From: Escherichia phage tootiki
Sequence record: MN850647.1
Reading direction: 5' to 3' (one strand)
Length of the DNA: 64,000 bases
Shown here: in pieces, positions 1-56,167 of the stretch
How the letters are laid out: each line of letters opens with the position of its first letter
Position numbering within the stretch: the first letter of the stretch is position 1
Notes under the pieces: generated by a model
Told to the model about the DNA's origin: nothing
What the model saw: only the letters and a program-made list of their open reading frames with translations
The model's database searches: none
Translations under genes and position numbers: made by a program

Positions 1-1393
1 AATAATCTTACAGTCTAAGCTATTAACAAGATAGTCAACAAACTCCAGCAAGTTATCTTGGTCAATTGCCCCTTGATGGTCTACGATGTGGATACGACGA
101 CCTTTAGACAGTTCTGCGTGTGCTTCCTTCAATTCATCCCAATCGCGTTCGTCATAAGGAATCTCAGAAATCTGCTTGCTAAGGTGGATTGCACAAAGCA
201 TCTCCATCAACTCTTCATAGGTATCTTCTACAGGAATTACACCAATATTGTAATCGGTTTCTTTCCAAGCTGTGTAAATCATTTCACGAGTGTATGCAGA
301 TTTACCCACTGAAGAGGGTGCTGCCAGAGTTGTAATCTCACCTAAACCATAACCGCCATAAGTCAGTCTGTTCAAATCTCCGAATGATTCTGGGAAAGGA
401 ATCAATGGAATCTGACCACGATTCTTCATTGCCTCAAAACCATCTGCGAAGTTCTTGATACCGGCAGGGCAGTAACGGGGTGCATTGTATATACGCTGCT
501 TAAACCCTTCAAGAACTGTATCTTTCTCTTTATAGAACTTTGTCCACCATTCGTTAAGGTCTTTTACACCCTCTGGATACTGGAATAAACGAACCTTCTC
601 GATAGGGAGAATGCCAGCAGCCTCTTTAGTGGCTTTAGCACCTGCTTCATCGTTATCAAAGCACAAGTAAATCTCATCAAATGATGTGATGTACTGATAG
701 TTGTCTTTGATAGACTTAATGTTTGCACCTGATGGTACAGATACGTGACAGTAATTCTTACGACGAGACTTATCTTTAATCGCAAGAGAAGTCATATAGA
801 TTGCTGTCGCACATTCCATCTCACCTTCCCAGATGAATAGACGGTTACCACCTTCTGGAGCAATCCATGAACCGAACATTGCCAGTTCACCTTTAATGTC
901 TCCAACACCACCAGAAAAGTCTTTTAGCTTACCACGTAGGTGCTCTTTTGGATGGTCTTCTGGGTAACGGTGACGAACACGGTAACCAACATGCTCTAGC
1001 TTACCATCTTCATTACGTTTGTAAGTTGGATAGAAATGCGCATCAATTTCACCGTCACTGTCAATGTCAACCTTGATACCTAAGCGTTCAAGGACTTTTG
1101 CAGGAATCTTCCTGTCTTTCAAGTCCATTGCTTCTAGGTTTTCTTTTACATCGTCTAAATCCATTCCACGGAAAGTACGGTTTTTGTTATCTGAACCAGT
1201 AGAATAAGTGCTCACGATTTGTCCTTTATCAAAATCCCACTCTGGGAAACCTTTGTTACAGCTAAAGCAAGTCATCGAATAAGAATCATCGTCATGATGA
1301 TAGATTGAACCAGCATCTGATGAACCACAACGTGGACATGCACAATGACCAATAAACTGACCAGCCTCTTTCAATTTACGACCTTTAGACATT
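1..1393 (-). CDS. DNA primase-helicase (T7 gp4-like), partial; start codon at 1393, continues beyond window start
   Basis: Minus-strand translation from ATG at 1393 gives a Cys4 zinc-binding region (CPRCGSSD...CFSC), a TOPRIM-like acidic motif (CFDNDEAG) and Walker A (APSSVGKS); no stop before coordinate 1. Confidence 0.8.
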
Positions 1394-3200: not shown

Positions 3201-3623
3201 TTATTTCTCTCTCAGTTGGTTAAGTTTCTTTCTAGAACATTTTAAGTTTTCGGATGAAGAAAAGTCAAGTGTCTTTTCAGAACGTGGATAATAGTGCCTA
3301 TCCCAAGAAGTTTCAACATCGTTAATCAGTGACGCTAGATTACACAGGTCTGTACCACTTTGCAACCTCTTTTTAAGAGAGTCTAGTAAAGCAACTGTGT
3401 CTTTAGCTTTACGTCTCGCTGTAGCAACATCTTTCATATGCTCAAATACAGAGCATTTTAAGTCATCTTCATAGTTTTCAGACAACTCTATTTCATGTTG
3501 TATATCAACCATCCTCCTGTGATGGTGAGCATATTCCCGTTGAGCAGCAATGTCAAGTTCTTCCAACTTCTGCAAAGCTCTAACAAAGTCAGCTATGTCT
3601 GGGTGAACAAACATTTTCTGCAT
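3201..3623 (-). CDS. hypothetical protein
   Basis: 140-aa ORF. Confidence 0.6.
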   Translation of the reverse strand: MQKMFVHPDIADFVRALQKLEELDIAAQREYAHHHRRMVDIQHEIELSENYEDDLKCSVFEHMKDVATARRKAKDTVALLDSLKKRLQSGTDLCNLASLINDVETSWDRHYYPRSEKTLDFSSSENLKCSRKKLNQLREK

Positions 3624-3796
3624 GTAAGCCTCTTTTAAGTAACTATTAAGTTTTAATCTTTTATCTTAACGTATTCTATACGTTATACTTTAAAGCTTTT
3701 TAAAAGCTATTAAATAATCTTTTAAGAGTTTTAAAGTATCTGTATAGTTAAACTGTTAAGTAACCTTTTAAGTAAAAACCCACTTCGCAAAGATTA

Positions 3797-3821
3797 ACAC
3801 CTTGTCAAGTACATTGTCAAC
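3797..3821 (+). promoter_or_regulatory. conserved 25-bp element ACACCTTGTCAAGTACATTGTCAAC in a divergent intergenic region
   Basis: Near-identical copy at 46371-46395; both preceded by CCTTTTAAGT and located between divergent operons. Confidence 0.45.
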
Positions 3822-3880
3822 TTGCTTTTTATAATTTTTTGCAGTAATGTATGAGGTTAATGATTTTAGAGGGAGTAAAA

Positions 3881-6023
3881 ATGGAAAACGTAGATTTTAA
3901 AAACTTACATTTGGTTGGTGATACAGAAACTGATGGTTTACTCCTTGAGTTCACTAAAGTTCACGTAATGGCCTTTGCAGACTATAAATCTGACGATGAA
4001 GAGCCACCTGTATGGGTCTTTACAGATGAGCCTATCCTCGGTCACAAGTACACTAAGTACATTAAGGGTGGTTTACGTGAAGGTGTTGAGTTTGCGTTAA
4101 AGGCAAAACGACTTTGTATCCATAACGGCCTCGGTTATGACTGGTGGGTCTTCAATCACATTGCACCGGATTTATGGAACTTTGATAATCCAAAATGTAA
4201 GCCGTGGAGTAATTTCTTTCAGGATTCTCTTATTCAGTCTCGTGTTCAGTGGATGGATAGACCAACTCCAAAGGGTTATAAAGGTGCTCATGGTTTGGCT
4301 GCATGGGGTGCTCGTGTTGGTGTTCGTAAACCAGAGATTGAGCATTGGGGTGTATGGAATGCAGAAATCTTCACTCGTGTTGTAGAAGATATCCGTATTA
4401 ATGCCAAAACTAAACGGGCACTTGATAACGAGTATCTCAAGCTTAAGAAGTGTGGTATAGACACTTATGAGACTTACATGCGAGCTAAAGAGACATCTTT
4501 CTGGATGAGCCAGCAAGCTATCAATGGTTGGAAAGCTGATAAGGAGCTTATGGAGTTCCATGTAAAGGAACTTGACAAGTTGACTAATGAGCTTGCTTCA
4601 GAGGTTGAACCACATCTACCTCCAACTATTAAGACCAAAGGTAAAGTGACTGGAGAAGAGTTTGCAAAAGCTTGGAATGAGTATGTTGAAACATTTGGTC
4701 ATGCAGATGGACTGAAGAGAATTACCAAGTACCCTAAGACAAAGTACCGTCAGCAGGTACGTAACGGTGAGATGCAGACATACGAAATCAAACCATTTGG
4801 TAAGCCAACTACAAAGATTTTTAATATTGAAAAGAGAAATTGCTATACACCAACCAACTCTGTAACTGGTGAAGAGTACAAAGAGGGTTTTGTAGCGATG
4901 AAGGATGCTCGTGCAATCTGCAACGAGTTGAATGCAAAGATTGGCAAAAAATGCAAAGACTGGAAACCAGTAAAAACAGTCAAGACTGTGAAGTACTATA
5001 ACAGTCACGTTGTCAATCACTTTGAACTTGAGTCAAGTCGCTACACAGGTTTGATTGATGCACCATATACACCAATTGAGTTTGAAGTTTCTCGTATGAC
5101 TCAGGTAGCAGTTGTTAAAGACTACTTGAAATCAGTTGGTTGGATTCCAGATGACTGGAATTACAAGAAAGACTCAGATGGTCGCCCTATCAAAGTTTGT
5201 CGTTTCAAAGACAATAAAAAGATGATTACAAAGCATCCTAAGTGGCAGGAAATGGTTGAGCGGTGTGGTTTGAGTTATGTTGAACATGAAGGTGTACAGT
5301 ACATCGAGCATAACTGGTCTGTGAAGAAATACACAGATTTGCTTGAACCTTGCTTAATCCGTACTTCACCAAAACTTACTGAGTCATCTTATGATACGAT
5401 TGAAGGTGAACTTGGACAGAAGATTGCTAAGTACTACACTTTGATGCACCGACGCAGAACTATTGAGAACTCAAAGGATGATGAAAAAGGTTGGTTGAAC
5501 CAGATTCGTCCTGATGGTCGCCTTAGTGCTGGTGCAATGGTATTTGGTACTTCAACTGGACGTATGACACAATATGGTATTGTAAACGTACCGTCTGGTG
5601 CTGCTGTCTATGGAGCACCTATGAGGGAGGTGTGGACTTGTGAAGATGGTACAGATATCATCTCCGTAGACCAAAACTCAGCCCAGCTAGTTCTTCTTTG
5701 TAACTTTATGGGTGATGAAGACTTCACTAAAGCAGTAACCGAGGGTAAAGAGTCAGTAGAGTTCACTAAGCAAGATGATGGTAGGTACTACTGTAAGCAT
5801 CTTGACAAGTATCTTAACCCAGAAACTGACAAGTATCTGCGTTATGATGCTGAGAATGACCTCTATGAAGTCTACACAGGGACTGATGCGCATACACTGA
5901 ACAGTATTTACTTTGGTCTGAACAAGGAAGAAGATATTGTTCGTTGTAGGGAGACACAGGATGATGAGCTTCTTCACGAGATTACAAAAGGTCGTAAGAA
6001 GGCTAAGAATGGCATTTATGCGT
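3881..6023 (+). CDS. DNA polymerase, family A (T7 gp5-like), exon 1 (3'-5' exonuclease and N-terminal polymerase domain)
   Basis: ATG at 3881 after GGAGG; Exo I motif LVGDTETDGL; reading frame ends inside motif B (RKKAKNGIYA) and is followed by an in-frame stop at 6062. Confidence 0.85.
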
Positions 6024-6291
6024 CAGTGGCGCATGTAAAACGTTGTGAATTGCTGGAAGCCTAAGTCTGTAAAGATATGGTAATCAGCAGCGAAGCCTCT
6101 TAAGAGGAACGTTCAGAGACTATCGAAAAGCATACTTAACGTATGAACTGAGTAGAGTAGGGTGGTAAGCTAATGACCATCCCCAAGTGCAACGGTAGCA
6201 CCACTGCTACGTGATATAGTCCGACACTCCGTAGAAATGCGGAGAAGTTCATAAGAGAACTGGTACACCTTGCGAGTGTATTGACCAGATG
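6024..6291 (+). ncRNA. group I self-splicing intron (ORF-less) interrupting the DNA polymerase gene
   Basis: Q-like AATCAGCAGC (6082-6091), R element GTTCAGAGACTA (6111-6122), S element GATATAGTCC (6213-6222); 5' exon ATGCGU can pair with intron GCGCAU (6029-6034) as P1 with U.G at the splice site; intron ends in G at 6291. Confidence 0.65.
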
Positions 6292-6848
6292 TATTGTTCG
6301 GGGCTGGAGACGAGAAGTTTGCAAAAACTATCAAGGCATCATCTACGGAAGAAGGTGCATTGACTAAACAAACTTACTTTGTGCGTCTACCTAAGATTAA
6401 AAAACTGCTTGATAGACTAGAGGAAGACTTCAAAGCAACTAAGAAAGCACTTGAAGAGGTTTTCGGAAAAACTTCTGCAATTGCCAAAGGTGGTTATATC
6501 AAAGTTGCTGGAGCGTGGTTATGGTGTAAATCTCCACATAAGTTATTGAATTACACACTTATGGGCAGTGAGGCGCAGGTGCAGAATGAAGGTATTAACT
6601 TGGCTAACAGAGAGTTAACAGAGCGAAAACTCACAGTCCTAAATGGTAGGAAACCAGCTATTGGTGCTAGATGGGTCTGTAGTTACCACGATGAGGTATC
6701 TTTAGAGGTTCCAACCAAAGATGTACCTGATGTTAAGGAGATTATTGATAGAATGTATGGTCAAGCGTCAAAAAATCTTGGATTAAAGAGTAAGACGCTT
6801 GTTACAGGCACTGGTAAGGTAGGTAAGACATGGTACGCCGTACACTAA
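6292..6848 (+). CDS. DNA polymerase, family A, exon 2 (motif B second half and motif C)
   Basis: Spliced junction restores KNGIYA-LLFGAGDEK (T7 gp5: KTFIYGFLYGAGDEK); motif C SYHDEV; C-terminus KTWYAVH resembles T7 NWAICH. Confidence 0.8.
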
Positions 6849-9895: not shown

Positions 9896-9923
9896 TTGAC
9901 ATAGAAAATTTGGTGAGTATACT
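9896..9923 (+). promoter_or_regulatory. sigma70-type promoter candidate
   Basis: TTGACA (9896-9901), 16-nt spacer, TATACT (9918-9923), AT-rich upstream sequence. Confidence 0.5.
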
Positions 9924-11963: not shown

Positions 11964-12176
11964 ATGGCTCTTAAAAAGTTACATCCCAGAAGCGGTTATG
12001 GTAAGATAATTGACGATACAGACGGCTTTACAGTCTTTACAGTCATCTGTCAAGATGATTCACAGATTGAAAAGGCTCTTGACGATTATCTTAATGATGA
12101 ACGTGAAAAGGTTAGGGCTACAAACATAGATTCATTGATTGACACTTCACGCAAACGGAAGAAGAAAGATGAATGA
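11964..12176 (+). CDS. hypothetical protein
   Basis: 70-aa ORF. Confidence 0.5.
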   Translation: MALKKLHPRSGYGKIIDDTDGFTVFTVICQDDSQIEKALDDYLNDEREKVRATNIDSLIDTSRKRKKKDE

Positions 12177-12468
12177 GGTTTTTGACCCTTATGCCCCACA
12201 AGATGATTGGGAGGCTGATAGAGAGGCTGAAATGGAGAGTTATATTTGTCCAATGGATGTAGATGAAATGAGAGACTTCGTTGCACATCGTTTTAAGAGA
12301 GAGATTAAATCAAGAGGTCTTTCTCAAGAGCAAGTTGCTAAAATTTGTGGTATCTCTCAGGCTCGTGTATCCAACATAATCCACCTCACTGGTAATGTTT
12401 CCCTTGAGTATATGTTGGAAGTATGTGAAAAATTTGGTGTTAATTTCAATTTAAGGTTGGCAGACTAA
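12169..12468 (+). CDS. helix-turn-helix DNA-binding protein (XRE-like)
   Basis: LSQEQVAKICGISQARVSNI resembles an HTH_3 motif; start uncertain (12139 or 12169). Confidence 0.55.
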   Translation: MNEVFDPYAPQDDWEADREAEMESYICPMDVDEMRDFVAHRFKREIKSRGLSQEQVAKICGISQARVSNIIHLTGNVSLEYMLEVCEKFGVNFNLRLAD

Positions 12469-19295: not shown

Positions 19296-27314
<8,019 letters not shown>

Positions 27315-39016: not shown

Positions 39017-39092
39017 TGGAGAATCCGAAGGGACTCGAACCCTTATAAACCTGTTCTGCAGACAGGTACATATCCATTTCTGTCACGGATTC
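39017..39092 (-). tRNA. tRNA-Cys (anticodon GCA)
   Basis: Cloverleaf by eye: acceptor GAATCCG/CGGATTC, anticodon stem CCTGT/ACAGG, loop CTGCAGA, T-loop TTCGAGT, CCA encoded. Confidence 0.7.
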
Positions 39093-39096
39093 AAAT

Positions 39097-39189
39097 TGGA
39101 GGAAGATACCAGACTTGAACTGGTACACCGATTTCTCAGCTACTGGCAGTTTAGCAAACTGCTCCCTTACCTTTTAGGGTTAATCTTCC
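39097..39189 (-). tRNA. tRNA-Ser (anticodon GCT), long variable arm
   Basis: Acceptor GGAAGAT/ATCTTCC, anticodon loop TTGCTAA, 21-nt variable arm, T-arm ACCAG-TTCAAGT-CTGGT. Confidence 0.7.
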
Positions 39190-39190
39190 A

Positions 39191-45872: not shown

Positions 45873-46244
45873 TTATTTTTTGAGAGTCGCTACAGCAGAG
45901 AACGTTGGTTTGTTATCTGTCTGTTGTTGACCACCATTATCAGGAGTCTTCTTAGTGTCTGCTGCAAGTGCTTTCATCTCACCTGCTGAGTGAGTAAAGA
46001 TAGTTTTACCGACCTCAATCATACTCTTGATGGTTACATCATCTGTGTTTAACCCGAACTCTGCAAGCTTAGCAGCGTCCCTTGTAACAATCGCCTCAAA
46101 CAACTTTGCAGCAAACTCAGCAGAATTATCAATGGTCAGTTGAGCTTTTACGAGTGAGCTTTTGTTACGAGAGCCTTTTGGTCTTCCAGATGGGTTTCCA
46201 GACTGGCCTTTTTTAAACTGGCCTTTGTTTGTTCTGTTTTTCAT
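45873..46244 (-). CDS. hypothetical protein with basic Gly-rich N-terminus
   Basis: N-terminal KGQFKKGQSGNPSGRPKGSRNK motif. Confidence 0.55.
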   Translation of the reverse strand: MKNRTNKGQFKKGQSGNPSGRPKGSRNKSSLVKAQLTIDNSAEFAAKLFEAIVTRDAAKLAEFGLNTDDVTIKSMIEVGKTIFTHSAGEMKALAADTKKTPDNGGQQQTDNKPTFSAVATLKK

Positions 46245-46370
46245 TGGTATGCCTCTTATAAGACCTCTTAAAAGGCTTTTAAGATAAAAGATAGATATCC
46301 AGAAAGATATCTGTTTAAATAGCCTTTTTAGAGGAACCTTTTAAGTTATCTTCTAAGTATTTATAAGCCT

Positions 46371-46395
46371 ACACCTTGTCAAGTACTTTGTCAAC
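46371..46395 (+). promoter_or_regulatory. second copy of the conserved TTGTCAA-containing element
   Basis: ACACCTTGTCAAGTACTTTGTCAAC; followed by TTGACT-N17-TACCAT. Confidence 0.45.
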
Positions 46396-46493
46396 AACTT
46401 TTTTAACTTGCAATAGTTCTTGACTTGTTGTATGGATTACTGTACCATCTTACTTAAAGCTGTAGGTCTGCCTTGTTCTACAAAGGAGACTTA

Positions 46494-46655
46494 ATGAGAA
46501 AATCAAACAACCCGAAGAAAGGTAAAAATACCAATCACTGTAAGGAATCAAAAAGGGTAGAGTTACTCTACTATTCATCCTCTGAAATTGGTCTGTACCT
46601 GTTCTTTCAAAATTACAGAAGACAAGAGGATTATCTATGTGTAGTTCCCAATTAG
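46494..46655 (+). CDS. hypothetical small protein
   Basis: ATG 46494 after AAGGAG; 46473 start is less likely. Confidence 0.4.
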   Translation: MRKSNNPKKGKNTNHCKESKRVELLYYSSSEIGLYLFFQNYRRQEDYLCVVPN

Positions 46656-51569: not shown

Positions 51570-52069
51570 TTTACGAAGAAAGATACAAGATAGATTTTCA
51601 GGATACTTGCCATCATACTTCTTTAAGAGTGACGAAACCAAATGGAGAGGTTGGTATCATAGCACATTTTGGTGGTGATTATTGGTATGGTACAGGTTGC
51701 TTTGAAGGCTACACTCAAGAATACCTGAAAGCTTTCTACAGAGACTTTGCAAATGACTACAACAGAGTTGTTGACGAAAAGAATAAGTGTATTAAGCATG
51801 AACACCATGCCAGAGGTTGCCTAAGTATTGTTATGGTACTGGCGTTCTTCTTAGCAATGCTACTGGCAGTATCAGCAATTAGCTGCATAGCTCAAGATTT
51901 GACCATTACACAGATTACTACAAAGATACATGATATCTGGTACTTGTATGCTGTTCCTTTAGCTGGTATTATCATCTCACTAATAAGGTTCAGAGTTCAT
52001 AAGAAACGACTTAAGGATTCTGAGGTTAAACTTGAAGAGGTAAGTAAAGAATGCAACCTACAATTATAG
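51536..52069 (+). CDS. membrane protein (start uncertain)
   Basis: Two hydrophobic segments in the C-terminal half. Confidence 0.5.
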   Translation: MEQTIERGWKMIYEERYKIDFQDTCHHTSLRVTKPNGEVGIIAHFGGDYWYGTGCFEGYTQEYLKAFYRDFANDYNRVVDEKNKCIKHEHHARGCLSIVMVLAFFLAMLLAVSAISCIAQDLTITQITTKIHDIWYLYAVPLAGIIISLIRFRVHKKRLKDSEVKLEEVSKECNLQL

Positions 52070-52887: not shown

Positions 52888-53449
52888 TGGTGTGATAGCT
52901 ATGGAAAAAGATAACTTAAAAGAAGTTGAAGGTAACTACCTAGTACTTGACTGGAACGATGTTCGAGAAGCACTCTCCGAAGAAAATCTTGACTGGTTCG
53001 AACAAATTATCTTTGCAGTACGGCATAACAGAGAAGTTGAAAATGGTAAAGAGCCACTTGAAGGAATCTTTGTAGAGAAGTCTTATCCGTTCTATGAAGA
53101 TACTTTGCAGAAAGTTAAAATGTACTTTAAACAGAAGAACCGTAAAGTGGTCACTATGGTATCTTTTGGTGGACAGAGTATGTCTGTGATGGAAGATATC
53201 AACCCTAAGAGACCGAGCAAAGGTGTCTGTATAAAAATCACAGGGCATGAAGAGTATATCTCAGTGGACGATTTTAGTGTGTTCTGTAATGGTTCTGCTG
53301 TCTTTAATGGGTTTCACTATGATATCCGAGTGTACCCAATCAAGGGAGATGATATCATGATGCAGATATTCGATAACAACAATGGATTTACTCATTTTTA
53401 TCAGACAACCAAGTCATCATTAAAAACAGTTCTGGAAACACTGATTTAA
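52856..53449 (+). CDS. hypothetical protein (start uncertain)
   Basis: 197-aa ORF; last gene before the ORF-free region. Confidence 0.5.
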   Translation: MQYQPTKFYDNGVIAMEKDNLKEVEGNYLVLDWNDVREALSEENLDWFEQIIFAVRHNREVENGKEPLEGIFVEKSYPFYEDTLQKVKMYFKQKNRKVVTMVSFGGQSMSVMEDINPKRPSKGVCIKITGHEEYISVDDFSVFCNGSAVFNGFHYDIRVYPIKGDDIMMQIFDNNNGFTHFYQTTKSSLKTVLETLI

Positions 53450-55086
53450 AATATCTTAAGAGCCTCCTTAATTGGGGGCTTTTTAATTTTTATAAAATTT
53501 TATCGGTTGTCCCAACCTCTGGGTCACCATCATATGTGAATAAAATATCTACCCTTCTTAACAACCTTCTTAATCTTACTCTCTATATAGTTATATAGTA
53601 CTATATAGTATCTTAGTAACTATCTAGTGGTCTTAATAGCCCTCTGTATAGCCCTTCTAAATAGCCTTCTAAACACTCTTCTAACAAGCCCTCTTAACCA
53701 CCTATACAATCACCTTAACCATCCCTCTACACCCTCTTAGAAGCTCCTATACACCTCTTAATCTCTAGGTTAGCTATGGCACTCTCTATAGGTGTTCACT
53801 AGGTAATACTAAGCCTCTATATAGACTGTTTTAACAAACTTAACAGGAATATCTTTACAGACCTTACCTCACAAGGTCTAACACGGTACTAACAAGGTAT
53901 CTTGTAAGCCTGTTTCTACCTGTATTTTTAAAAGACTGTATAGGTAATTATTCAGAATTTTAAAATTTTTATAAAATAGGACTATCAAGTCATTTTTTAG
54001 GGTCTTTGAAGGAACTGAAAAATATCTGTCTAGGATGTATATCTGCTTGGTAGCCCTTAACAGCTCCCTTACAAGTACTTTGCAAAATTTTAAAATATCC
54101 TTAACAATCTCTTAACAGTTCTCACATCTTCTTAACAACTCTTCAAAGGTCTTAACAGATTCTTAACAGAACTAACAAGGCTGTAACAGTTTCTTAACAG
54201 TTGATACATAATCTTTACAGAGGCTTAACAGATGACTAACAAGAGCTAACAAGTTAATTTTAAAGAGTTATTTTGTTAAGATTATTAACAAGTTTCTAAC
54301 AAGTCTTTAATCTTTTTAACAAGCTATTAACATGGTCACTATCTCTTTCTTATCGTTCCCTTTCCTTTCTTAGTGATTCTTTAAACATACCTCTTAAAAG
54401 CTCTCTATAGCTCTTTATAAGCTCTTTTAAGTCTCTTCCTAGTAGTTACACCCCAACTGTACAGATAGCTCTCTATAGGGCTTTACAGGAGCTTTTAAGG
54501 CTATGTCAAAGACTCTTACAAGGCTTTTACGTGGTCTTAACAGAGATTTAACAAGGGGCTAACAAGTTGCTAACAAGTGTCTTAAAAGCATAACTATGTA
54601 GGGATTGTTAAGAAATTGTTAAGAAAATGTTAAGGGGGCTAGTATTTACGTAACTTTTAAGCTACTTCAAAATAACTTTTAAGCTACTTCAAAATAACTT
54701 TATAGCCCCCTTCTTAGATATTCACAAGATAACTAATGAGATGATAAAGCTTACACCCTTATAAGATTCTTTTAAGGCTCTGGGAAGCTTTATAAAGGGC
54801 TTTTAATGGTGAGGTAATGCAATCCCTTAAGTTAGGTTAATAAGGTCGTTATAGGGCTTTATAGAGCGTTTAAATGGTTGCCCTTCCCTTTCGGGTTATG
54901 GGCTTATATTTAAGTTGATTTGATAAGGGGCTATAGAGTAAGCTATAGAGTTATTGTTTTTTAAGGTCTGATAAGATTCTGGAAAGGAAAGGGAAAGGGT
55001 TGTATAAGGGATTTGATAAGACGTAAAAAAGCCCCATATAAAGGGGCTGTAAAGGTATCTGGGGCTATTTAGCCCCGTTGCGGCGT
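53450..55086. repeat. 1.6-kb ORF-free region dense in short direct repeats (iteron-like)
   Basis: No ORF of 60 aa or more in any frame; many copies of CTTAACAG / CTAACAAG / TTAACAAG, CTATATAG and CTCTATAG motifs; tandem 22-bp repeat at about 54655-54700. Confidence 0.6.
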
Positions 55087-56037: not shown

Positions 56038-56167
56038 AGCAATTTTTTAAGTTTATCTATAAAGAATCTTTTAAGTTAATCCCTTTTAGATAAACCCCCT
56101 CGAACAAATCTACCAATGTCAAGGGGCGTTGTCAATACTTTTTTGAAAGTTTTTTGTAAGTTATTGA

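What the first reader, a model, noticed from the sequence alone, without database searches (positions are those of the whole stretch)
3797..3821. Conserved TTGTCAA-doublet element at two divergent promoter regions
ACACCTTGTCAAGTAC(A/T)TTGTCAAC occurs upstream of the DNA polymerase gene and again at 46371-46395 upstream of the rightward block that contains the endolysin. Both sit in divergent intergenic regions and are preceded by CCTTTTAAGT. The two TTGTCAA half-sites 12 bp apart look like a dimer-binding operator or phage-specific promoter rather than a canonical sigma70 promoter.
Basis: seen in the sequence. Interest (0 to 1): 0.45.

Follow-up and report, generated by a model that had tools for sequence, protein, structure and literature searches.

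The report
Double −35 host-type phage promoters
The repeated 25-base element is real, but on the opposite strand it is the core of two ordinary host-RNA-polymerase promoters of a Felix O1-like phage; these, with a third promoter, share an unexplained, strictly conserved second copy of the −35 box.

Summary
ACACCTTGTCAAGTAC(A/T)TTGTCAAC occurs at 3797-3821 and 46371-46395, 24/25 identical, with none expected by chance and exactly two copies per complete genome.

The window is a Felixounavirus, in reverse orientation to Felix O1. The two sites are the gene 96/97 and gene 40/41 divergent gaps.

Read on the minus strand, each TTGTCAA is TTGACAA, the perfect sigma-70 −35 hexamer. The outer hexamer has an upstream A-tract and a TAnnnT −10 placed 17-18 bp downstream. 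This matches about ten other promoters in the genome. Felix O1 "P41" and the AYO145A record already annotate it as a promoter.

So the promoters most likely fire leftward, towards genes 97 and 41.

The new part is the second TTGACA inside the spacer. It recurs at a third promoter (56107-56135). It is invariant across three genera while neighbouring bases vary. It always comes with CT(T)AAAAGG in the leader.

The function of the inner hexamer is unknown. Overall this is a modestly interesting variant of a known kind.

The parts
3797..3821 (-). Site A element (the finding). On the minus strand it reads GTTGACAATGTACTTGACAAGGTGT, which is the -35 hexamer plus the spacer of the leftward promoter 'P97'.
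   Evidence: conserved in three genera
3815..3820 (-). Site A outer TTGACA, the inferred -35 hexamer
   Evidence: AYO145A annotates a minus-strand promoter equivalent to window 3820-3791
3803..3808 (-). Site A inner TTGACA, 12 bp after the outer one and inside the spacer; function unknown
   Evidence: invariant in 6 sequences from 3 genera, while 3 of the 6 linker bases vary
3791..3796 (-). Site A inferred -10 hexamer TAATCT (spacer 18); it reads TAGTCT in Mooglevirus
3821..3835 (-). Site A A-tract upstream of the -35 (ATTATAAAAAGCAAG), UP-element-like. On the + strand it reads as the T-run and the TATAAT.
   Evidence: the same context occurs at other TTGACA promoters
3764..3772 (-). It starts 48 nt after the first base of the outer hexamer.
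46371..46395 (-). Site B element. On the minus strand it reads GTTGACAAAGTACTTGACAAGGTGT, the core of the leftward promoter 'P41'.
   Evidence: Felix O1 P41; AYO145A promoter annotation
46389..46394 (-). Site B outer TTGACA, the inferred -35 hexamer
46377..46382 (-). Site B inner TTGACA
   Evidence: invariant in 3 genera, while 5 of the 6 linker bases vary
46366..46371 (-). Site B inferred -10 hexamer TAGGCT (spacer 17); variants in other genera are TAGCCT and TAGTAT
46395..46408 (-). Site B A-tract upstream of the -35 (AGTTAAAAAAGTTG)
46337..46345 (-). Site B leader motif CTTAAAAGG, starting 49 nt after the first base of the outer hexamer
56107..56149 (-). Site C, the third double-hexamer promoter 'P22': A-tract, TTGACA (56130-56135), ACGCCCC, TTGACA (56117-56122), TTGG, TAGATT (56107-56112)
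   Evidence: lies between Felix O1 ORF21 and ORF22
56068..56089 (-). Site C leader motifs CTAAAAGG (56082-56089) and CTTAAAAG (56068-56075)
46420..46448 (+). Rightward promoter candidate for the gene 40 to 24 (endolysin) block: TTGACT-N17-TACCAT. It is separate from the element.
   Evidence: promoter scan; identical in all three genera
3822..3850 (+). Rightward promoter candidate for pol: TTGCTT-N17-TAATGT (TAGGGT in Mooglevirus). It lies back-to-back with P97. This assignment is inferred only.

Best explanation
The 25-bp element is the -35 hexamer plus spacer of two host-RNA-polymerase (sigma-70 type) promoters that fire leftward in window coordinates, which is rightward in Felix O1 coordinates.

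- P97 (site A) heads the gene 97 unit, which carries dNMP kinase and primase/helicase.
- P41 (site B) heads genes 41 and 42, followed by the tRNA cluster.

Proposed mechanism (inferred): RNA polymerase docks through an upstream A-tract and the outer TTGACA. It opens DNA at a weak TAnnnT hexamer 17-18 bp downstream. Transcription should then start near 3784 (site A) and 46359 (site B).

These two promoters, together with a third (P22, 56107-56135), form a small subclass. Its members carry a second, strictly conserved TTGACA 12-13 bp downstream of the first, and a CT(T)AAAAGG motif at about +10 to +20 of the transcript.

What is shown: the sequence anatomy, its conservation and its non-randomness.

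What is inferred: the direction, the start sites and the use of sigma-70.

What is unknown: the job of the inner hexamer. My leading guesses are a second docking site for sigma region 4, or a site for an unidentified phage factor that tunes these three promoters.
For: (1) On the minus strand both half-sites are TTGACA.

(2) The outer hexamer shares its context with about ten other promoters in the genome. Examples are tataaaaagttgTTGACA-N16-TATACT at 9896 and tcaataaagttgTTGACA-N17-TATAGT at 42866, which is Felix O1 P45.

(3) Footprints over Felixounavirus, Suspvirus and Mooglevirus at the three sites:
- outer hexamer: 0 of 18 columns variable
- inner hexamer: 0 of 18
- linker: 11 of 19
- inner hexamer to -10: 8 of 15
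- -10 hexamer: 5 of 18, with T1, A2 and T6 always kept

(4) The full architecture (TTGACA-N6/7-TTGACA with TAnnnT 16-18 bp after the outer hexamer) occurs 3 times in the complete relative humlepung, against 0.003 expected. It occurs twice in Erwinia phage Hena2, against 0.007 expected. All copies are on the coding strand.

(5) Earlier annotators independently called the outer hexamer a sigma-70-like promoter on this strand (Felix O1 P41; AYO145A).

(6) The + strand reading fails:
- TATAAT at 3830-3835 becomes TGAAAC or TGAAGA in the other genera.
- Site B has its own invariant rightward promoter.
- Site C has no divergent gene.

(7) Of about 12 A-tract/TTGACA promoters in the window, only the three double-hexamer ones carry CT(T)AAAAGG at +46 to +49 from the outer hexamer.
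Against: - No transcript 5' ends are available for any Felix O1-like phage in the literature I could search.
- The -10 hexamers are weak: TAATCT and TAGGCT match 3 of 6, and TAGATT matches 4 of 6. They failed the standard promoter scan.
- Site A needs an 18-bp spacer.
- Nothing in standard sigma-70 promoter anatomy explains an invariant second -35 hexamer in the spacer. The explanation is therefore incomplete, and a bound factor may be essential rather than accessory.
- The published RT-PCR timing is crude. It puts genes 41, 42, 97 and 98 at a 25-min maximum but gene 22 at 5 min. The three promoters are thus not obviously co-regulated.
Confidence: 0.7

Rival explanations
1. The doublet is chiefly an operator or activator site. 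A phage-encoded DNA-binding protein, for example the Cro/C1-type HTH at 12169-12468, would bind the two half-sites and switch the divergent promoters during infection. The resemblance to a -35 hexamer would be secondary.
For: - Both hexamers are invariant while the linker varies, which is the classic pattern of two contacted half-sites.
- The inner hexamer has no -10 hexamer at 16-18 bp.
- The -10 hexamers are weak, as in factor-dependent promoters.
- An HTH_3 protein is encoded in the pol transcription unit (phrog_1373).
- How transcription is timed in this phage group is unknown.
Against: - The hexamer is exactly the sigma-70 consensus, and the outer copy has full promoter context.
- The repeats are direct, whereas Cro/C1-type dimers normally read inverted repeats (general knowledge of that family, not tested here).
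- Spacing is 12 bp at sites A and B but 13 bp at site C.
- Hena2 has two promoters with the same geometry but no homologue of the HTH protein.
- The element's position relative to the rightward promoters differs between sites A and B.
Confidence: 0.18
2. The inner TTGACA is a functionless leftover of a 12-bp tandem duplication of the -35 region. It would be carried along because it is harmless.
For: At sites A and B the two 12-mers match at 9 of 12 positions (TTGACAATGTAC versus TTGACAAGGTGT), which fits a duplication origin (sequence).
Against: - The inner hexamer shows 0 of 18 variable columns across three genera, whereas 19 of 34 neighbouring spacer columns vary.
- The arrangement recurs independently at site C and at two unrelated Hena2 promoters.
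- Genome-wide expectation is about 0.003-0.05.
Confidence: 0.05
3. The element is a loading module for a processive antiterminator, analogous to the lambdoid late promoter PR'. The repeated hexamers between -35 and -10 would act as the protein-binding element. The leader motif would hold the polymerase so that transcripts can read through the many terminators of these long units.
For: - In phage 21 the Q-binding element is a 6-bp direct repeat between -35 and -10, read by a sigma-region-4-like HTH. Lambda Q needs an extra -35-like element.
- The Felix O1 paper notes that read-through of numerous terminators is unexplained.
- The three promoters share a leader motif at a fixed position.
Against: - There is no consistent -10-like (TAnnnT) pause element in the three initial transcribed regions (sequence).
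- No Q-like gene is annotated in the relatives.
- The few window proteins scanned gave no Q-family match.
- Repeat spacing differs: 12-13 bp here against 8 bp in phage 21.
- The outer repeat is the -35 hexamer itself.
Confidence: 0.04
4. The element is a rightward, phage-specific or activator-dependent promoter for the polymerase gene and the endolysin block.
For: - In Felixounavirus a perfect TATAAT lies 8 bp after site A, and TAACTT lies at the same offset after site B.
- Pol is transcribed within 5 min according to the text of the Felix O1 paper.
Against: - That TATAAT is not conserved in Suspvirus or Mooglevirus, although the element is.
- It is the reverse complement of the A-tract of the leftward promoter.
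- Site B has an invariant TTGACT-N17-TACCAT further downstream.
- Site C and both Hena2 doublets have no divergent gene.
- No phage RNA polymerase or sigma factor is known in this group.
Confidence: 0.03

Closest known systems
Strong sigma-70 early promoters of virulent coliphages, which have an A-rich upstream region, TTGACA-type -35 and -10 hexamers (for example T5 and T7 early promoters; from general knowledge)
   Same: - A-tract immediately upstream of a consensus TTGACA
- 17-18 bp spacer and a TAnnnT hexamer
- Use of unmodified host polymerase, consistent with the Felix O1 paper finding no phage RNA polymerase or sigma-modifying genes
   Different: - A second consensus -35 hexamer is embedded in the spacer at +12/13, invariant across genera.
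- The -10 hexamers are unusually weak.
- A conserved CT(T)AAAAGG lies in the early transcribed region.
Lambdoid late promoter PR' with its Q-binding element (phage 21 Q and lambda Q; PMC6606751)
   Same: - A 6-bp direct repeat sits in the -35 to -10 interval of a sigma-70 promoter.
- In lambda there is an additional -35-like hexamer used by sigma region 4.
- Both sit at the head of long, terminator-containing units.
   Different: - Here one repeat is the -35 hexamer itself.
- Spacing is 12-13 bp, not 8 bp.
- No -10-like pause element and no Q homologue were found.
- There are three promoters per genome rather than one.
Lambda CII-dependent promoters (TTGC-N6-TTGC direct repeats straddling the -35 region; from general knowledge)
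   Same: - Direct repeats beginning TTG overlap the -35 region of a promoter with a weak -10 hexamer.
- The linker between the repeats is free to vary.
   Different: - The period is 10 bp in lambda against 12-13 bp here.
- CII promoters lack a good -35 hexamer, whereas these have a perfect one.
- This is a virulent phage with no CII-like gene identified.
Pho box and other OmpR/PhoB-family sites (CTGTCAT direct repeats with 11-bp period replacing the -35; from general knowledge)
   Same: On the + strand the element shows TGTCA direct repeats about one helical turn apart, 10 bp before a TATAAT at site A.
   Different: - The period is 12-13 bp, not 11 bp.
- The downstream TATAAT is not conserved.
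- The orientation relative to the conserved -10 hexamer is opposite.
T4 middle promoters (MotA box at -30 plus a -10 hexamer, with AsiA remodelling sigma region 4; PMC2988021 appeared in search results but was not read, so this is from general knowledge)
   Same: A phage-specific promoter subclass is defined by an extra conserved box upstream of a sigma-70 -10 hexamer.
   Different: - The MotA box TGCTT replaces the -35 hexamer. Here a consensus -35 is retained and duplicated.
- No MotA or AsiA homologues are reported in Felix O1.

Membership tests
Sigma-70 (host RNA polymerase) promoter | -35 hexamer close to TTGACA | tested here: met
   Matches 6 of 6 at 3815-3820, 46389-46394 and 56130-56135 on the minus strand.
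Sigma-70 (host RNA polymerase) promoter | -10 hexamer TATAAT-like (A at position 2, T at position 6) 16-18 bp downstream | tested here: met
   TAATCT (N18), TAGGCT (N17) and TAGATT (N17). These match only 3-4 of 6, but T1, A2 and T6 are invariant over three genera. They fall below the threshold of the generic scan.
Sigma-70 (host RNA polymerase) promoter | Points towards a gene at a plausible distance | tested here: met
   Leaders are about 160 nt to gp97 (start 3623), about 115 nt to gp41 (start 46244) and about 155 nt to gp22 (start 55945).
Sigma-70 (host RNA polymerase) promoter | Transcription start mapped downstream of the -10 hexamer; binding by E-sigma-70 | not testable with these tools
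   No TSS or in vitro data were found for this phage group.
Operator of a dimeric Cro/C1-type HTH repressor | Inverted-repeat (dyad) symmetry of the site | tested here: not met
   The two half-sites are direct repeats. The 19-mer matches its own reverse complement at only 12 of 19 positions, although each heptamer TTGnCAA is internally symmetric (sequence).
Operator of a dimeric Cro/C1-type HTH repressor | Fixed half-site spacing at all sites | tested here: not met
   12 bp at sites A and B, 13 bp at site C.
Operator of a dimeric Cro/C1-type HTH repressor | Cognate HTH protein co-occurs with the site | tested here: not met
   Hena2 has two promoters with the architecture but no tblastn match to the HTH_3 protein at E<=0.01.
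Operator of a dimeric Cro/C1-type HTH repressor | Specific protein binding | not testable with these tools
   Needs EMSA or footprinting.
Single-subunit phage RNA polymerase promoter (T7-like) | Phage-encoded RNA polymerase, and about 20 bp conserved upstream of many genes in the direction of transcription | tested here: not met
   No RNA polymerase is annotated in complete relatives, and Felix O1 is reported to have none. There are only two copies per genome.
Q-dependent lambdoid late promoter | Protein-binding repeat between -35 and -10 | tested here: inconclusive
   The inner TTGACA lies in that interval, but its partner is the -35 hexamer itself. Compare the phage 21 Q-binding element.
Q-dependent lambdoid late promoter | -10-like sigma-dependent pause element in the initial transcribed region | tested here: not met
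   No shared TAnnnT occurs in the first ~25 nt of the three leaders. TACTTA and TAAAAG lack the final T (sequence).
Q-dependent lambdoid late promoter | Q-family antiterminator gene | tested here: inconclusive
   None is annotated in humlepung or Hena2. Only 12 window proteins were scanned against Pfam/PHROGs.
PhoB/OmpR-type direct-repeat box | Direct repeats with 10-11 bp period, about 10 bp upstream of a conserved -10 hexamer | tested here: not met
   The period is 12-13 bp. The + strand TATAAT is not conserved.

The most novel reading that the evidence does not exclude
The double TTGACA plus the CT(T)AAAAGG leader may be a dedicated control module. An unidentified factor, for example a sigma-region-4-like or Q-like protein, would read it. 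This factor could be encoded by a phage group that is reported to have no polymerase-modifying proteins. It would give P22, P41 and P97 a distinct timing or resistance to terminators. That would answer the open question of how Felix O1-type phages schedule transcription.
Probability: 0.12. Interest if true: 0.75.

Novelty: new variant of a known kind. Interest (0 to 1): 0.35.

Why it matters
Felix O1-type phages are widely used for Salmonella typing, biocontrol and therapy. Yet the genome paper states that their temporal control of transcription and their read-through of many terminators are unexplained.

This analysis shows that the two junctions dividing the genome into four transcription units carry paralogous host-type promoters of a special three-member subclass. 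That gives concrete targets: three 45-bp sequences, with predicted starts near 3784, 46359 and 56100. They can be used for transcript mapping, promoter-reporter work and protein pull-downs.

If the inner hexamer proves to be a protein site or a second sigma contact, it would add a new way of tuning sigma-70 promoters. If it does not, these are simply strong early or middle promoters, and the finding is ordinary.

Tried and rejected
- **IMG/VR scan.** A scan with TTGTCAAGNNNNWTGTCAA returned mostly chance hits in unrelated contigs and was uninformative.
- **Rfam.** The window scan at gathering thresholds found nothing in the leaders, only tRNAs and a group I intron.
- **Literature.** Searches for transcript maps of Felix O1-like phages found none. 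The wV8 paper does not mention promoters. The UAB_Phi87 and PhageMaP/Bas63 papers say nothing about these sites.
- **Coordinated evolution of the two copies.** Felix O1 and the window differ by the same A/G change at both sites. This is not general: 63 records have G at site A, about 9 match the G variant at site B, and PQ064465 is discordant.
- **A -10 hexamer for the inner TTGACA.** None exists at 16-18 bp in any site.
- **Other sigma factors and host factors, compared by eye against consensus sequences from memory.**
  - Sigma-32: site C's CCCCTTGACA resembles a sigma-32 -35 element, but no CCCCAT -10 follows.
  - IHF: the consensus does not fit.
  - PhoB: the period is wrong.
- **PDB sequence searches.** Searches with gp41, gp97 and the HTH protein gave nothing useful.
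- **RT-PCR timing.** The Felix O1 classes do not unify the three promoters.

Full report
**1. Observation**

The element is present exactly as described. 3797-3821 reads ACACCTTGTCAAGTACATTGTCAAC and 46371-46395 reads ACACCTTGTCAAGTACTTTGTCAAC. With up to three mismatches these are the only two matches in the window, against none in 100 shuffles. CCTTTTAAGT precedes them by 23 and 24 bp. The bare heptamer TTGTCAA is only marginally enriched, 30 against 20.3 expected.

**2. Identity of the genome**

The window is about 97% identical to Salmonella phage Felix O1 and to some 250 other Felixounavirus records. It is in reverse orientation relative to Felix O1.

Site A is the gap between Felix O1 genes 96 (DNA polymerase) and 97. 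Site B is the gap between genes 40 and 41. The Felix O1 genome paper names exactly these two gaps as the boundaries of four "transcriptons" (97-131/1-23, 96-80, 40-24, 41-79). It finds no phage RNA polymerase or sigma-modifying genes, and it says temporal control and terminator read-through are not understood.

Complete genomes of the genus carry exactly two copies of the element. The 401-bp stretch around site A is at least 99% identical in 188 of 258 records. That is tighter than the adjacent polymerase gene, where most records fall at 90-95%.

**3. The other strand**

The reverse complement of the element is GTTGACA-A(T/A)GTAC-TTGACA-AGGTGT. That gives two perfect sigma-70 -35 hexamers 12 bp apart.

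I listed every TTGACA in the window and in the complete relative humlepung. This reveals a family of about a dozen intergenic promoters with a common layout: an A-tract, then (g)TTGACA, then 16-18 bp, then TAnnnT. Examples:
- tataaaaagttgTTGACA-N16-TATACT at 9896
- tcaataaagttgTTGACA-N17-TATAGT at 42866, which is Felix O1 "P45"
- ttaaaaagggtaTTGACA-N17-TAATAT at 44357

The outer hexamer of both copies fits this layout:
- Site A: ataaaaagcaagTTGACA-N18-TAATCT
- Site B: ttaaaaaagttgTTGACA-N17-TAGGCT

The T-run and the TATAAT that follow site A on the + strand are therefore the reverse complement of an upstream A-tract.

Previous annotators reached the same reading for the outer hexamer. Felix O1 "P41", TTGACA(N15)TATAGG at 21515-21541, is this hexamer. 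The AYO145A record annotates minus-strand promoters over both sites.

**4. Phylogenetic footprints**

I aligned the sites from Felixounavirus, Suspvirus and Mooglevirus and counted variable columns. Summed over sites A, B and C:

| Segment | Variable columns |
|---|---|
| Outer hexamer | 0 of 18 |
| Inner hexamer | 0 of 18 |
| Linker between hexamers | 11 of 19 |
| Inner hexamer to -10 | 8 of 15 |
| -10 hexamer | 5 of 18 (T1, A2, T6 never change) |

The -10 variants are TAATCT/TAGTCT at site A, TAGGCT/TAGCCT/TAGTAT at site B, and TAGATT/TAACTT/TACATT at site C.

The + strand reading does not survive this test.
- TATAAT at 3830-3835 becomes TGAAAC or TGAAGA in the other genera, while the element itself is unchanged.
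- At site B a separate rightward promoter, TTGACT-N17-TACCAT (46420-46448), is identical in all three genera.
- A plausible rightward pol promoter is TTGCTT-N17-TAATGT (3822-3850), lying back-to-back with P97. This assignment is inferred only.

**5. A third member and a composite class**

A third promoter on the same strand also has a second TTGACA in its spacer. It reads ttcaaaaaagtaTTGACAacgccccTTGACAttggTAGATT (56107-56149), with the inner hexamer 13 bp after the outer. It lies between Felix O1 ORF21 and ORF22 and is conserved in all three genera.

In humlepung there are exactly three TTGACA pairs 10-14 bp apart, against 0.055 expected. If a TAnnnT is also required at 16-18 bp from the outer hexamer, the expectation falls to 0.003.

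Among about 12 A-tract/TTGACA promoters in the window, only these three carry CT(T)AAAAGG at a fixed place, 46-49 nt after the first base of the outer hexamer.

The broader family CTnTTAAG is five-fold enriched in the window, 63 against 12.4 expected. It is concentrated in the two gaps and in a 1.6-kb non-coding region.

**6. Deeper relatives**

Erwinia phage Hena2 (Kolesnikvirus) shares about 62% amino-acid identity in Pol. At the equivalent gaps it has single-hexamer promoters pointing away from pol and towards the gene-41 homologue.

It has two other promoters with the identical geometry:
- TTGACAtcaactTTGACAgaacgTATGTT, upstream of rIIB
- TTGACAttctacTTGACAggggcTAAAGT, after the last gene and pointing into a repeat-rich non-coding region

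Only 0.007 such sites are expected.

Hena2 has homologues of gp22, gp40, gp41 and gp97. It has no detectable homologue of the Cro/C1-type HTH protein at 12169-12468.

**7. Interpretation**

The best-supported reading is that the element is the -35 hexamer plus spacer of leftward host-polymerase promoters P97 and P41. These are paralogues within a three-member subclass.

What remains unexplained is the invariant inner hexamer.
- It has no -10 hexamer of its own.
- The linker next to it is free to vary. An A/G polymorphism there segregates independently at the two sites.

A dimeric HTH operator is disfavoured by three things: the direct-repeat geometry, the 12 versus 13 bp spacing, and the Hena2 result.

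A neutral duplication remnant is disfavoured by the conservation and by independent recurrence.

The lambdoid PR' promoter offers a precedent. It has 6-bp direct repeats between -35 and -10, read by a sigma-region-4-like protein, and an extra -35-like element for lambda Q. However, no shared -10-like pause element and no Q gene were found here, so this stays a low-probability analogy.

The published RT-PCR timing does not unify the class: genes 41, 42, 97 and 98 peak at 25 min, whereas gene 22 peaks at 5 min.

**8. Verdict**

The repeat is real and conserved. It is largely explained as ordinary sigma-70 promoter cores read on the opposite strand and already partly annotated. It has one unexplained and, in the literature I could search, undescribed feature: a duplicated -35 hexamer coupled to a leader motif. 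I rate it a new variant of a known kind, of modest interest.

Noticed in passing
window 5961-6244: A group I catalytic intron (Rfam RF00028, 61.3 bits against a gathering score of 50) interrupts the DNA polymerase gene. The pol reading frame stops at 6064 and resumes in the ORF at 6294-6848. Felix O1 and humlepung have an uninterrupted 2721-bp pol gene.
   Followed up: partly
window 53449-55078: A 1.6-kb non-coding region is packed with short repeats (CTGTTAAG, CTTGTTAG, CTTAAAAG, CTATAGAG). A comparable repeat-rich region (TGTTAAGA, TTCTAAG) sits at the record ends of Erwinia phage Hena2, directly downstream of one of its double-hexamer promoters. It might be a packaging, terminal-repeat or origin region.
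   Followed up: partly
window 3668-3684: The palindrome AACGTAT-TCT-ATACGTT lies in the leader between P97 and gene 97. It keeps its symmetry through paired changes in Suspvirus (TACGTAT...ATACGTA) and Mooglevirus (TATGTAT...ATACATA). It could be a small RNA hairpin or a dimer-binding site.
   Followed up: partly
window 46420-46448: The rightward sigma-70-like promoter TTGACT-N17-TACCAT and its whole leader down to the gene 40 start are identical across Felixounavirus, Suspvirus and Mooglevirus. This is unusually strong conservation for non-coding DNA.
   Followed up: partly
window-wide; densest at 3501-4000, 46001-46500, 54001-55000: The octamer family CTnTTAAG is five-fold over-represented (63 against 12.4 expected) and clusters in non-coding regions. 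What reads it is unknown.
   Followed up: partly
window 44330-44360 (minus strand): The promoter ttaaaaagggtaTTGACAatgtgtttgatacccttTAATAT overlaps a hairpin (GGGTATTGACAATGTGTTTGATACCC) that the Felix O1 paper lists as terminator t42. The terminator of genes 41-42 and the next promoter, for the tRNA cluster, therefore share the same bases.
   Followed up: no
window 39017-44210 and 44376-45791: A cluster of 24 tRNA genes lies on the minus strand, directly downstream of a 471-aa vWFA-type protein (Pfam DUF7788/DUF2828; PHROG label 'RNA-binding protein').
   Followed up: no
window 45873-46244: The first gene of the P41 unit encodes a basic 123-aa DUF5681 protein, upstream of the packaging module. 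Felix O1-like phages are reported to lack a recognisable small terminase. Whether this protein binds DNA was not tested.
   Followed up: no
window 1059-1070 (minus strand): Two abutting hexamers, TTGACATTGACA (offset 6 bp), lie inside a coding region. The same sequence occurs at 51588 in humlepung, inside the primase/helicase gene. It is probably coincidental coding sequence.
   Followed up: no
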